64,000 bases of DNA from Escherichia coli 042 (GTDB taxonomy: Bacteria > Pseudomonadota > Gammaproteobacteria > Enterobacterales > Enterobacteriaceae), in assembly GCF_000027125.1 (NCBI RefSeq), contig NC_017626.1; one strand, given 5' to 3'. Position numbers: made by a program. Below, one piece after another: positions 6,001 to 9,000 of this stretch. Every line of letters begins with the position of its first letter. Positions within the stretch are counted from its first letter, which is position 1.

Positions 6001-9000
6001 CCAGCAAACGTCACCCGACTGTTGAGTTCATCGAAATCTTTGGCATAGCTGACGCGATAAGAGTTGCCGTCCAGCGTTTTGTTGCCATACACGCTGTTAT
6101 CGTCGAGTTGAACACGAGAGTGAGTGACATCAAACGCTAACGCGCCTAACAGCGCCAGGTCACGACCGAGGCCCAGCGCCGCCGACTGGTAGTTTTCATC
6201 GGCTAACGCACCGCCGTAGAGCGACCAGCCATTGGCAATCCCCCAGGATGCCTCACCGCCCGAGAAGAAGCTACCTGCAACCTGATGGTCCCAGTTTTGT
6301 GGACGCCCCATTGTCACTTTATAACGCACCTGGCCGGGGCGAGTCAGGAACGGCATGGACGCTGTGCTGACGTCGTATTCTTGTACCTGGCCGTTTTGTT
6401 CTTCAATGCGGACATGCAGCGTGCCAGAGACGGAGTCGCCAATATCCTGAATGCGGAATGGCCCTGCGGGCACCTGGGTTTCGTAAATGACACGGCCCAT
6501 TTGGGTTACGGTCACTTTAGCGGTAGTGTGTGCAACACCTGAAATATCGGGTGCGTAGCCGCGCAGGTTTGGCGGTAACATTTGATCATCGGTACTGATG
6601 CTGCCGCCAATGTAACTGAAGCCATCAAAAATATCGGAGTTGAGATAATCTTCGCCCAGCGAAAGTTTGGCTTTTAATGACGGCAAGGCGCGCCAGGCGT
6701 AGTAACGACTCCACTCCCAGTTTTTTTGCGTACCGCTATCGTCGGTGTCGCCGTCATCGTTACTGCGGGTATGCTGATAATCGCTCTGCCAGTCAGCTCG
6801 TAAGCGCCACGGCCCAACGTTAACGCCGACCGTACCATTACCGCTGATGTCGTTAGTGTCATCACCCCCATTTTCATGTCGGGTTTGCGCGTTGATACTG
6901 TAATCGGCAATAAGCCCAGGGATACCGTCATCCCAGCGCGAAGGCGGATCCCACTCGCTGTCGGTATATTCCAGATAAGCCTGCGGTACAGAAACAAGGA
7001 GTGCAGACTGGCCTAAATCGCCGCTAATTTCTGTACCTGCTAAAAGTGCCGTATTCAGACACTGACCATCGCGGATCCATTGCAAATTCTTTGCAATATC
7101 TTCCTTCAGACCAAACTGGGCAACCAGCTCTGGCGATAAGCAGGCATATGATTTATTCGGATCGTTTTCAGTTGCGTACCAGTAGATATCGTAGTCGTCA
7201 GGTAACGGCTGATTATTTACATGAACGCGTAAGTTATATTTTCCCGGTTCTACATAGCCTTTTTGCGAAAAACGGCCCAAATCAATTTTGGTATTGCCTT
7301 TTAAATCAAGAAATCGGCCATCAAACTGAATGATATCGTCTGCCAGGGCATTAAATGGACTTCCAGAAATTGCCAGAGCAATCCACCACGAAAGCCCCCG
7401 TAAACGGAGAAAAGAATGTTCTGGCATCGGCGTATCCATCCATGATTTTTTATAATTTAGTTATTTGGTAGTTATAAACCCCATAACTTTGCAGCTATGG
7501 GGGAAATACATTAGAGATACGTGATCTGGAACGTCGTCAGCGTTTCAAACGGTGCCGGTGTTGGTGTTACAGCATCCGTTTCACCCACTAACCATGCTTT
7601 AAAGTTCAGAGTTTGTTTAGGCTTGCCTTTTCCCGTTGAACTGTCCTTCACGATAGGTTGCTTAATCTCTGCTCCCAGTGCATAACCTGTACCGTGCTGG
7701 TCACCGATAACCAGGCTAACGTTTGGAATTTCAGTTCCATTATCCATGTTAGACAGAGAATAGTTATCTGCGTTAGTGGAGTACGGATTACCGGTGAATG
7801 TGGTAGCCATTGTCGTTTCTGTATTGAAATTACAGTCCTGTAAACGAATCTGGAAATCTTTTGGTGTGGTTGTTTTGCCGCCGGTTAAAGAACCCGTACC
7901 GATGCTGCCCATATCCACTTCCAGTTTATGATCGTCAGGAACAATTGAGCACGGGGAGTCTTCAATTGTGCCGTAAAATCTCACTGTACCGTTGTTCCCT
8001 GCGGCAACGACTGATGCTGAAGTCAGCGCCCCCATGAGCATTGTCGTGGCAACTGCTGCTTTTACAAACTTACTCATTATTTGTCCTTAAATCATAAATA
8101 ATTAGAATATAAGCCAACTGAAATATTGACACAGAACTTCTTCAATTTTTTGCATCGACTTTTAACCAGCCAATGAACATATTTTCAGATCCTGAAAAAA
8201 CAGGTCCCTTGAATCAATATTCTTTGGCGTGCCGAACATATTGATATTTTAATATGACTGAAGCAATTTAGATTTTCTAACATTCAAAGTTAGAAATACT
8301 TAATTAATAGGCAGGAATAATAATTACTGAAATTTTTCATCTCAGTTATGAAGAATGAGTTCAAAAAAACGGCAAATGCAAAAATACAGTGAATAAATCA
8401 AAGTCAAAAACAATCACATGGCAATGACTATCTTGTGATATTAATTTCGCAACGATATAATATTAAAACACTATAATTAATATAAAATCAAGACCCAATT
8501 ATATTTTTCACTTTAGTCATTATTTACCTAAAAATGCTTCCAGAAAAATAATTTATGAATAAAAGTAAATTCTCTTTCAATATGTAAATTTTTACAAATA
8601 AAAGCGTCATGCCGTATAAAATAAAGACCATTCGATCACAAGCGGATCATTGTTAGTACAATAAGATTGCATAAATTCAACATTGCCAGAAAAAAATAAA
8701 GGCCCGATAGATTACACCAGCGGGCCTTGTGCATGCGTATTAAATCGCTTTTGCCATCTTCAGATTACACGGGCTCATCTGCCAGTTGAATGTGCCGTTT
8801 CCGCTTTCATCAAGCGTTACGCTGGCAATGGCCGAGGTGGTAAACATAGGCGGCGTTTCGCCCGGACATAACTCGGCAACCAGATACCCGACTAAGGGTA
8901 AGTGGGAGATCACCAGTACCGAAGCAACACCTTCATTGGTCAACGCCTGTAAATAGGCACTGACCAGACCAACATCGCCGCAGGGCGTTAACTCCGGCAG

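What the first reader, a model, noticed from the sequence alone, without database searches (positions are those of the whole stretch)
8078..8739. Unusually long AT-rich leader upstream of the fimbrial operon with a small inverted repeat
About 660 bp of non-coding AT-rich DNA precede yfcV and include an 8-bp inverted repeat (tttctaac-N7-gttagaaa at about 8274..8296). Long AT-rich leaders are typical of silenced chaperone-usher operons; the inverted repeat could be a regulator site. No invertase gene is nearby, so a fim-like invertible switch is not supported.
Basis: inference. Interest (0 to 1): 0.3.

Follow-up and report, generated by a model that had tools for sequence, protein, structure and literature searches.

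The report
AT-rich silenced fimbrial operon control region
This is the long, AT-rich, non-coding control region in front of a normally silent E. coli fimbrial operon; the small inverted repeat that drew attention is no more than chance would give, so the finding is largely ordinary.

Summary
Window 8078-8739 is the whole 662-bp sixA-yfcV intergenic region, 28.5% GC against 49.6% for the window, and tttctaac-N7-gttagaaa sits at 8274-8296.

The repeat is not special. 48% of composition-matched shuffles contain an equal repeat. It is not the most stable hairpin in the region. It is kept only within this allele family, which is 94-99% identical.

The region is not one long leader. It contains the sixA terminator (8690-8728), a poorly conserved AT-rich stretch, a distal conserved core (8425-8498) with promoter-like sites on both strands, and a better conserved proximal ~230 bp.

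The K-12 counterpart is published as an H-NS-bound "promoter island" with an RNA polymerase binding peak. The window's allele is only ~52% identical to it but shares its length, AT-richness and conserved blocks. Silencing by H-NS is therefore the best-supported mechanism, inferred rather than measured for this allele.

A fim-like invertible switch is excluded: 633 of 633 genomes are colinear and no recombinase gene is nearby. A pap-like Dam/Lrp switch is not supported.

Two things worth noting beyond the finding:
- The region occurs as 5-7 allele families only 45-65% identical within Escherichia.
- A conserved ~90-nt dyad element lies at 8151-8241.

The parts
8078..8739 (.). Complete sixA-yfcV intergenic region: 662 bp, 28.5% GC, non-coding
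   Evidence: ORF list and annotation of near-identical genomes. Composition. No ORF wholly inside it longer than 35 aa and no Pfam match above threshold in six frames. No Rfam match at E<=1.
8690..8728 (-). sixA intrinsic terminator: stem AAGGCCCG/CGGGCCUU (8699-8728) followed by UAUUUUUUU (8690-8698)
   Evidence: Fold of -16.9 kcal/mol. A hairpin is kept at this position in every sixA-linked allele although the arm sequences differ.
8274..8296 (.).
   Evidence: Present as described. Chance-level. Arms invariant within the allele family, but the symmetry is absent from the other families.
8265..8305 (.). Extended imperfect palindrome around the repeat: 20-nt arms, 80% complementary
   Evidence: the repeat finder pair I2. 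Local fold of -9.4 kcal/mol, not significant over the whole region.
8258..8306 (-). Conserved block 'ATTAAT..TCTAC..TTAGTAAA..TAAATTG' that contains the repeat. It may be a weak sense promoter, TCTAAC (8289-8294)-18-TAAATT (8265-8270). That reading is inference only.
   Evidence: Conservation of 0.75-0.88 against a region mean of 0.61 across 10 divergent alleles. The promoter reading comes from reading the alignment; it did not reach the cut-off of the positional promoter scan.
8151..8241 (-). Conserved dyad element. Outer arms are 8217-8233 ('CACCAAAGAATA' block) and 8165-8180 ('TATTCAATGGCTGGG' block). They enclose a small hairpin at 8187-8207 that carries GATC (8188-8191).
   Evidence: Consensus fold. 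83.9% of cells paired against 25-38% in slid controls, covariation score 0.233 against 0.145 in shuffles. 14 of 15 sequences fold to the same architecture. The covariance model matches only yfc-clade upstream regions.
8425..8498 (.). Distal conserved core. On the + strand, promoter-like TTGTGA (8433-8438)-17-TATAAT (8456-8461). On the - strand, TTGGGT (8493-8498)-17-TATAGT (8470-8475), which corresponds to the K-12 promoter predicted by Shimada et al. Also ACGATATAAT, an 8/10 match to the H-NS template (the scan reports it by its 8461 end).
   Evidence: Promoter scans. Alignments. K-12 prediction TTGAAA-17-TATAGT (PMC3946193). H-NS template from PMC2094087.
8075..8117 (-). Nearly invariant translation-start block: TTATATT..TAATTATTTATG.TTTAAGGACAAATAATG. 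The Shine-Dalgarno AAGGAC is at 8083-8088 and the ATG at 8075-8077.
   Evidence: Identical or nearly so in all Escherichia and Pseudocitrobacter alleles.
7511..8077 (-). yfcV, the major fimbrial subunit gene. It is a divergent allele, 65% identical in protein to K-12 YfcV.
8740..9225 (-). sixA, the upstream gene on the same strand
   Evidence: TIGR00249, 219 bits against a cut-off of 74.5. Annotation in related genomes.

Best explanation
**What it is.** The segment is the full regulatory intergenic region of a yfc (Stf-type) chaperone-usher fimbrial operon in an E. coli strain that carries a non-K-12 allele.

**Layout, read in the direction of transcription (minus strand):**
- the sixA terminator;
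- about 190 bp of poorly conserved AT-rich DNA;
- a distal conserved core with promoter-like hexamers on both strands;
- more AT-rich DNA;
- a proximal ~230 bp with several conserved blocks, ending in the ribosome-binding site of yfcV.

**How it most likely works.** The region acts as a platform for H-NS (and StpA). RNA polymerase can bind the many promoter-like sites, but productive transcription of the operon is blocked. The block would be relieved when a counter-silencer acts. PapB-family TosR and BolA are reported to raise yfcV mRNA when overproduced.

**The repeat.** The 8-bp inverted repeat is most likely a fortuitous palindrome in AT-rich DNA. It happens to overlap a moderately conserved block. 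It is not a dedicated operator and not part of an invertible element.

**Shown here:** the composition, the absence of coding, the terminator, the conservation map, the absence of inversions, and the chance level of the repeat.

**From the literature, for the K-12 allele only:** H-NS and RNA polymerase binding.

**Inferred:** that the window's allele behaves the same way, and where its promoter lies.
For: **Composition and sites**
- GC is 28.5%, the lowest in the window.
- There are 7 promoter-like hexamer pairs in 662 bp, 10.6 per kb, against 1.17 per kb window-wide.
- Sites matching the H-NS template at 8/10 or better occur at 15.1 per kb against 3.5 per kb window-wide (template from PMC2094087).

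**Literature on the K-12 spacer**
- It is a catalogued promoter island bound by H-NS in two ChIP data sets (PMC3661553).
- It carries a sigma-70 holoenzyme SELEX peak and an H-NS mark (PMC3946193).
- yfcV rises by log2 5.2 on TosR overproduction in CFT073 (PMC5956150).
- yfcV rises on BolA overproduction in K-12 (PMC4337573).

**Comparative evidence**
- All 23 yfc/stf upstream regions examined are 465-690 bp and 23-33% GC (one more locus was cut off by its contig end). This holds next to sixA in Escherichia and next to sspB or other genes elsewhere.

**The repeat**
- It is chance-level and its symmetry is not conserved between allele families.

**Other checks**
- No inversions in 633 genomes.
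- No Rfam family.
- No coding remnant.
Against: - H-NS occupancy and silencing were never measured for this allele. It is only ~52% identical to the K-12 spacer.
- Against composition-preserving shuffles, promoter-like sites are only mildly enriched: 7 against 3.7 +/- 2.2. The 'promoter island' property is therefore largely a consequence of AT-richness.
- Blocks at 8158-8183, 8210-8234, 8258-8281 and 8452-8468 stay conserved across alleles that are otherwise ~50% identical. Such blocks point to sequence-specific factors or an RNA structure, beyond the non-specific binding of H-NS.
- The repeat's arms lie in one of these conserved blocks. A role specific to this allele is not excluded.
Confidence: 0.7

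Rival explanations
1. The proximal part is a transcribed 5' leader. Its conserved dyad (8151-8241) folds as an RNA stem-loop that controls yfcV mRNA stability, processing or translation. This can coexist with H-NS silencing.
For: - The consensus fold pairs two of the best conserved blocks around an inner hairpin.
- 83.9% of cells are paired against 25-38% in slid controls. The covariation score exceeds all 500 shuffles. Five of the six inner-hairpin pairs show changes on both sides.
- The one-sided changes in the outer helix are mostly transitions that keep a G-U pair on the sense strand.
- The distance between the arms varies from 44 to 53 nt. A hairpin tolerates that better than a phased protein dimer would.
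- 14 of 15 sequences fold to the same architecture.
Against: - No transcription start is known, and the public start-site tables I could reach do not cover the locus.
- Fold z-scores are weak: mean -1.3 on the sense strand and -1.9 on the antisense strand. The strand, and whether the symmetry acts in RNA or in DNA, is unresolved.
- The core pairs never vary and so carry no information.
- The structure was derived from the same sequences it was tested on, which inflates the controls.
- The element is absent from Salmonella and Citrobacter stf operons.
Confidence: 0.3
2. The 8-bp inverted repeat is an operator for a dimeric regulator. It overlaps the -35 and spacer of a weak promoter and is specific to this allele family.
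For: - Both arms are invariant in seven sequences of the family.
- The arms lie in blocks conserved at 0.75-0.81 against a region mean of 0.61.
- Other alleles have different small dyads ending on the same AGTAAA, for example K-12 TTTACT-N4-AGTAAA.
Against: - The repeat is chance-level in two tests.
- The family is 94-99% identical, so invariant arms are expected anyway.
- Four allele families have no dyad of 5 bp or more here. Those that do have one differ in register and spacing.
- No regulator gene is adjacent.
Confidence: 0.08
3. The conserved + strand promoter-like site (TTGTGA-17-TATAAT, 8433-8461) drives a divergent or antisense transcript running toward sixA. The transcript would be a small RNA, or the act of transcription would interfere with a distal yfc promoter.
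For: - It is the best promoter match in the region, 10 of 12 positions.
- Both hexamers and their spacing are kept at the same alignment position in 6 of 7 allele families that are otherwise ~50% identical.
Against: - The DNA downstream of it on the + strand (8470-8690) is the least conserved part of the region (0.46), and about 100 bp of it is missing in the B2 allele.
- There is no terminator for that strand and no Rfam match.
- The near-palindromic ATATAATAT could equally serve the sense strand or be an H-NS site.
- Spurious promoters are common in AT-rich, H-NS-bound DNA (PMC3661553).
Confidence: 0.12
4. The region is a phase-variation switch, either fim-like (invertible) or pap-like (Dam/Lrp methylation patterns).
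For: - 9-bp perfect inverted repeats lie 204-332 bp apart.
- A GATC about 104-115 bp upstream of the ATG is shared by most Escherichia alleles.
Against: - The 9-bp pairs are at chance level, 3 against 2.78 expected.
- All 633 genomes are colinear.
- There is no recombinase gene and no papI- or papB-like gene.
- Only one GATC is conserved, not two about 102 bp apart.
- Even that GATC is missing in GPEC1165 and L011 (same family as the window), and in the B2, E. albertii and Pseudocitrobacter alleles.
Confidence: 0.03

Closest known systems
E. coli K-12 yfcV/sixA 'promoter island' (Panyukov & Ozoline 2013, PMC3661553; sigma-70 SELEX peak in Shimada et al. 2014, PMC3946193)
   Same: - Same chromosomal position and flanking genes.
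- Similar length: 680 bp in K-12, 662 bp here.
- Similar GC: 32% in K-12, 28.5% here.
- Same conserved blocks.
- Promoter-like sites on both strands.
   Different: - Only ~52% nucleotide identity.
- The K-12 predicted promoter TTGAAA-17-TATAGT reads TTGGGT-17-TATAGT here.
- H-NS and RNA polymerase binding are measured only for K-12.
- The K-12 usher gene is a pseudogene, whereas here it is intact at 883 aa.
Upstream regions of other cryptic, H-NS-bound chaperone-usher operons of E. coli (sfm, elf/ycb, yad, yeh, ybg, yra, ecp), also listed as promoter islands
   Same: Long AT-rich non-coding DNA in front of the major subunit gene, bound by H-NS, with low expression in the laboratory.
   Different: Unrelated in sequence. 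The conserved blocks found here are specific to the yfc clade.
fimS invertible promoter of type 1 fimbriae
   Same: AT-rich control region upstream of a major fimbrial subunit gene. Short inverted repeats are present.
   Different: There are no FimB/FimE-type recombinase genes, no orientation variants in 633 genomes, and the inverted repeats are at chance level.
pap regulatory region (Dam/Lrp/PapI/PapB phase variation)
   Same: The operon belongs to the pi (Pap-like) class of fimbriae (PMC3032704). A PapB-family protein, TosR, raises yfcV mRNA (PMC5956150).
   Different: There are no papI or papB genes in the region and no pair of conserved GATC sites.
Salmonella/Citrobacter stf operon upstream regions
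   Same: The major subunit is homologous (43-47% identity). The upstream region is likewise long and AT-rich (465-601 bp, 23-28% GC). The ribosome-binding block TTTTAAGGAT.AAAAATG is similar.
   Different: The dyad element and the other yfc blocks are not detectable. The chromosomal neighbours differ (sspB, or a mobile element).

Membership tests
H-NS-bound 'promoter island' / silenced AT-rich regulatory region | Much more AT-rich than the surrounding genome | tested here: met
   28.5% GC against 49.6%; the lowest 600-bp stretch in 64 kb.
H-NS-bound 'promoter island' / silenced AT-rich regulatory region | Unusually high density of potential transcription start sites on both strands | tested here: inconclusive
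   10.6 promoter-like pairs per kb against 1.17 per kb in the window, but only 7 against 3.7 +/- 2.2 in composition-matched shuffles. The original PlatProm criterion was not applied.
H-NS-bound 'promoter island' / silenced AT-rich regulatory region | H-NS occupancy in vivo and very low productive transcription | not testable with these tools
   Reported for the K-12 allele only (PMC3661553, PMC3946193). H-NS template sites are 4.3-fold enriched here, which is suggestive only.
fim-type invertible switch | A site-specific recombinase gene next to the element | tested here: not met
   Neighbours are the yfc genes, sixA, fadJ, fadI, smrB and prmB. There is no coding remnant in the region.
fim-type invertible switch | Both orientations found among genomes | tested here: not met
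   All 633 genomes carrying this allele match colinearly in one piece.
fim-type invertible switch | Inverted repeats bounding a segment of a few hundred bp, beyond chance | tested here: not met
   Three 9-bp pairs observed against 2.78 expected; 47% of shuffles reach that number.
pap-type Dam/Lrp phase variation | Two conserved GATC sites about 100 bp apart, plus papI/papB-type regulator genes | tested here: not met
   GATC sites lie 114, 560 and 571 bp upstream of the ATG. Only the first is shared between alleles, and it is missing in several. No such genes are present.
Intrinsic (Rho-independent) terminator, for 8690-8728 | GC-rich hairpin followed directly by a run of U on the transcribed strand | tested here: met
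   -16.9 kcal/mol stem followed by UAUUUUUUU. The consensus scan missed it, probably because it allows loops of only 3-8 nt and the perfect arms are 14 nt apart.
Any described RNA family (Rfam 15) | Match to a covariance model | tested here: not met
   No match at E<=1 in 7000-10000 on either strand.
Yfc/Stf-type chaperone-usher operon (context of the region) | Major subunit and usher match the Stf/Yfc models; synteny smrB-yfc-sixA | tested here: met
   - The usher matches PRK15284 at 1788 bits against a cut-off of 972.
- YfcV's best family is StfA, but below its cut-off (132 against 267).
- YfcV is 65-73% identical to other YfcV alleles.
- Synteny is as in K-12.

The most novel reading that the evidence does not exclude
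The yfc-type fimbrial operons of Escherichia and Pseudocitrobacter carry an undescribed, clade-specific cis-regulatory element. It is a ~90-nt dyad, at window 8151-8241, formed by two near-invariant blocks around a variable hairpin. It would act as a structured 5'-leader RNA, or as a DNA operator pair. It has been kept through allele divergence of about 50% and through relocation of the operon to another chromosomal site.
Probability: 0.25. Interest if true: 0.4.

Novelty: new member of a known kind. Interest (0 to 1): 0.22.

Why it matters
Little rests on the repeat itself. The value of the check is in what it settles and what it turns up.

- A tempting palindrome in AT-rich DNA is shown to be chance-level.
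- The region is placed in a described class, the H-NS-bound control regions of cryptic fimbrial operons.
- One control region exists in one species as several alleles only about half identical to each other. That gives a natural footprinting experiment, which pinpoints a handful of short blocks and one dyad element as the places to mutate if one wants to learn how Yfc fimbriae are switched on. yfcV is widely reported among the virulence genes of uropathogenic E. coli isolates.

Tried and rejected
- **Rfam scan of 7000-10000:** nothing at E<=1.
- **Terminator scan:** it missed the sixA terminator, probably because of the scan's loop-length limit; folding recovered it.
- **Small conserved ORFs:** the 25-aa ORF at 8162-8239 has no start codon in K-12. 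No frame gives a Pfam match above threshold; the one weak DUF6713 match scores 17.5 bits against a cut-off of 27.
- **Published start sites for K-12:** the Cappable-seq GTF is held only in part, and the SMRT-Cappable-seq supplements hold nothing for the locus.
- **Korea et al. 2010**, the main paper on cryptic K-12 fimbriae, is not in the library.
- **H-NS high-affinity motif:** the distal conserved block scores 9/10 in K-12 and Pseudocitrobacter and 8/10 here. Every allele has 5-11 such sites over its full upstream region, so this is not discriminating.
- **Known regulator sites:** I read the conserved blocks by eye against the IHF, CRP, RcsAB, CpxR and sigma-54 consensus sequences as I recall them. 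None fitted across alleles. This was not a formal test.
- **GATC/Dam idea:** rejected.
- **Covariance model R1:** searched in the Salmonella and Citrobacter stf loci and in the rest of the window, with no upstream match.
- **Metagenome scan for more copies of the dyad:** considered and not run. A pattern built on the two conserved arms would bias any covariation test.
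Full report
**Where the window comes from and what flanks the finding.** The window is E. coli. Its fadJ-fadI segment matches 5,425 of 5,426 complete genomes, the best at 99.3%. Around the finding the gene order is smrB, then seven yfc fimbrial genes on the minus strand, then the finding, then sixA, fadJ, fadI, yfcZ and fadL. The fimbrial genes end with an 883-aa usher (4788-7439) and the major subunit gene yfcV (7511-8077). The order is as in K-12 and in near-identical genomes. The interval 8078-8739 is therefore exactly the sixA-yfcV intergenic region, and both flanking genes are read on the minus strand.

**Checking the observation.** The region is 662 bp and 28.5% GC, against 49.6% for the window. 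It is the lowest-GC 600-bp stretch in the 64 kb. TTTCTAAC at 8274-8281 and GTTAGAAA at 8289-8296 are perfect complements separated by 7 nt. They sit inside a looser palindrome with 20-nt arms at 8265-8305. The region is non-coding. Each frame has 12-19 stop codons, the longest ORF wholly inside it is 35 aa, and a six-frame Pfam scan gives nothing above threshold. Rfam gives no match at E<=1.

**Is the repeat more than chance?** It is not.
- In 2000 dinucleotide-preserving shuffles of the 662 bp, 48% contain at least one perfect 8-bp inverted repeat with a spacer of 20 or less. For spacers of 10 or less the figure is 31%.
- Taken alone, the 47-nt segment folds at -9.4 kcal/mol with z = -3.6. 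That figure is post hoc. Scanning the whole region, 85% of shuffles contain a 47-nt window at least as stable. Two other places in the real sequence fold better, 8152-8198 at -12.0 and 8398-8444 at -11.5.

**Is the repeat conserved?** Only within its own allele family.
- Seven sequences of the family keep both arms unchanged. These are the window, 18KM2445, GPEC1165, contig L011 and three further genomes. The family is 94-99% identical throughout, so this says little.
- The other allele families lack the symmetry. 06-00048 (and the near-identical E69) and E. whittamii have no dyad of 4 bp or more at this position. B2 and Escherichia sp. MOD1 have only 4-bp ones.
- K-12 (TTTACT-N4-AGTAAA), A16 (ATTTACT-N4-AGTAAAT) and O157 (CTTAA-N7-TTAAG) have dyads in other registers and with other spacings.
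- The sequences under the arms are moderately conserved, 0.75 and 0.81 against a region mean of 0.61. The loop is not, at 0.56. The repeat thus lies in a conserved block, but the conserved property is the sequence and not the symmetry.

**Anatomy of the region, read on the minus strand from sixA to yfcV.**
1. The sixA terminator. A stem at 8699-8728 is followed by UAUUUUUUU at 8690-8698, and the fold is -16.9 kcal/mol. Every sixA-linked allele has a hairpin here, with different arm sequences.
2. 8500-8690 is the least conserved part (0.46). About 100 bp of it is absent from the B2 allele.
3. A distal conserved core at 8425-8498.
   - It contains the best sigma-70-like match in the region, TTGTGA-17-TATAAT at 8433-8461. 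That match is on the + strand and points away from yfcV.
   - Both hexamers and their spacing are kept at the same alignment position in 6 of 7 allele families.
   - On the sense strand the core reads TTGGGT-17-TATAGT (8498-8470). This is the counterpart of the TTGAAA-17-TATAGT promoter that Shimada et al. predicted under the K-12 polymerase peak (PMC3946193).
   - The near-palindromic ATATAATAT also resembles the H-NS high-affinity template: 8/10 here, and 9/10 in K-12 and Pseudocitrobacter.
4. 8310-8420 is of average conservation.
5. The proximal ~230 bp is the best conserved part. It is 78.7% identical between the window and the 06-00048 allele, where the full region is 64-65% identical. 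Its conserved blocks are 8258-8281, 8238-8250, 8210-8234, 8158-8183 and 8048-8117. The last holds the ribosome-binding site and start codon.

**Mechanism.** The K-12 spacer at this position is one of 78 'promoter islands'. Panyukov & Ozoline describe these as AT-rich regions with very many potential start sites. They bind RNA polymerase, yield almost no full-length RNA and are covered by H-NS. The yfcV/sixA entry is marked as H-NS-bound in the Kahramanoglou and Oshima data sets (PMC3661553). Several other cryptic fimbrial operons are on the same list. Shimada et al. report a sigma-70 holoenzyme peak and an H-NS mark in the same spacer.

The window's allele shares these properties as far as sequence can show.
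- It is extremely AT-rich.
- Promoter-like pairs occur at 10.6 per kb against 1.17 per kb in the window.
- H-NS-template sites occur at 15.1 per kb against 3.5 per kb.

Against composition-matched shuffles the promoter-like sites are only mildly enriched, 7 against 3.7 +/- 2.2. These properties therefore follow largely from base composition.

Induction of yfcV mRNA by overproduced TosR in CFT073 (PMC5956150) and by BolA in K-12 (PMC4337573) fits a silenced promoter that can be switched on.

I therefore take H-NS silencing of a promoter region as the most likely mechanism, with confidence 0.7. It is inferred for this allele, not measured.

**Switch hypotheses.**
- A fim-like inversion is excluded as far as genomes can show. 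All 633 genomes with this allele match colinearly in one piece. The three 9-bp long-range inverted repeats are what shuffles give, 2.78 expected. No recombinase gene is nearby.
- A pap-like methylation switch is not supported. Only one GATC, 114 bp upstream of the ATG, is shared among alleles. It is missing in two members of the window's own family and in the B2, E. albertii and Pseudocitrobacter alleles. There are no papI- or papB-like genes.

**Allele diversity, beyond the finding.**
- The window's version of the region occurs in only about 633 of 5,426 complete E. coli genomes.
- The K-12/B1 version is in roughly 3,100 genomes. O157, B2 and rarer versions account for the rest.
- The representatives fall into 5-7 families that are 45-65% identical to each other. 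All are 566-687 bp and 26-33% GC.
- sixA stays nearly identical (SixA protein >=97.5% identical). Divergence begins in its last codons. YfcV proteins differ to the same degree, at 65-73% identity.
- In Pseudocitrobacter and Salmonella the homologous operon lies next to sspB instead of sixA, and still brings a 557-601-bp AT-rich upstream region. The long upstream region is therefore part of the operon unit.

**The conserved dyad element.**
- A consensus fold of the proximal part pairs the block CACCAAAGAATA (8217-8233) with the block TATTCAATGGCTGGG (8165-8180). They enclose a small hairpin at 8187-8207.
- On 15 sequences from all families, 83.9% of cells are paired, against 25-38% when partners are slid by 1-3 columns. 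The covariation score is 0.233, against 0.145 +/- 0.017 in shuffles (0 of 500 reach it). Five of the six inner-hairpin pairs show changes on both sides.
- Fourteen of the 15 sequences fold on their own to the same architecture.
- The distance between the arms varies from 44 to 53 nt.
- A covariance model built from the alignment matches only yfc-clade upstream regions. It does not match stf operons or anything else in the window.

The caveats are real.
- The core pairs never vary.
- Fold z-scores are weak, and no better on the sense strand than on the antisense strand.
- The structure was derived from the sequences it was tested on.
- No start site is known.

I rate a functional structured element at about 0.25-0.3.

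**Verdict.** The inverted repeat should not be given weight. The region is an allelic member of a described class. Interest is low, with a modest lead in the conserved dyad and the allele diversity.

Noticed in passing
window 7511-8739, compared with L002-L010, L013-L020: The yfcV gene and its upstream region occur in Escherichia as 5-7 allele families. The intergenic DNA is only 45-65% identical between families and YfcV 65-73%. The adjacent sixA stays nearly identical (SixA protein >=97.5%), and divergence starts within its last codons. The window's family is present in about 12% of complete E. coli genomes.
   Followed up: partly
window 8151-8241 (minus strand): A conserved ~90-nt dyad element upstream of yfcV. 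Two near-invariant blocks pair around a variable hairpin. It is found in all Escherichia and Pseudocitrobacter yfc alleles but not in Salmonella or Citrobacter stf operons.
   Followed up: partly
window 8433-8461 (+ strand): The best sigma-70-like site in the region, TTGTGA-17-TATAAT, points away from yfcV. It is kept at the same position in 6 of 7 allele families.
   Followed up: partly
L018, L021, L023 against the window: In Pseudocitrobacter and Salmonella the homologous operon lies downstream of sspA-sspB instead of sixA. It still carries a 557-601-bp AT-rich upstream region, so that region moves with the operon.
   Followed up: partly
window 7479-7502 (minus strand): A strong hairpin, CCCCAUAGCU....AGUUAUGGGG, lies just after the yfcV stop codon and before the usher gene (z = -3.2 for the 89-nt context). 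It sits where chaperone-usher operons often have a stabiliser or attenuator after the major subunit gene.
   Followed up: no
window about 15150-16500: This is the second most AT-rich stretch of the window (30-34% GC), with as many promoter-like sites as the finding. It holds a 351-aa ORF (15428-16483, + strand) with no NCBIfam match, between fadL and mlaA. K-12 has yfdF in that neighbourhood, next to another listed promoter island (yfdF/mlaA).
   Followed up: no
window 4788-7439 (minus strand): The usher gene is intact here at 883 aa and matches PRK15284 at 1788 bits. In K-12 the corresponding yfcU is annotated as a pseudogene.
   Followed up: no
L011 (JAIJJM010000567.1): A 2.2-kb contig filed under a Collinsella sp. 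metagenome-assembled genome carries E. coli sixA and yfcV with this allele, 97-98% identical in the intergenic region. It is probably a binning error.
   Followed up: no
hit H79, NZ_AP027494.1 (E. coli LR-24): The K-12-type sixA-yfcV spacer in this genome is split by an IS1 insertion.
   Followed up: no
L029 1481-1574: The dyad model gives a 28-bit match (E about 7e-5, rough) in a distant stf-like operon. The match lies downstream of the major subunit gene and runs into the start of the usher gene, not upstream of the major subunit gene.
   Followed up: no
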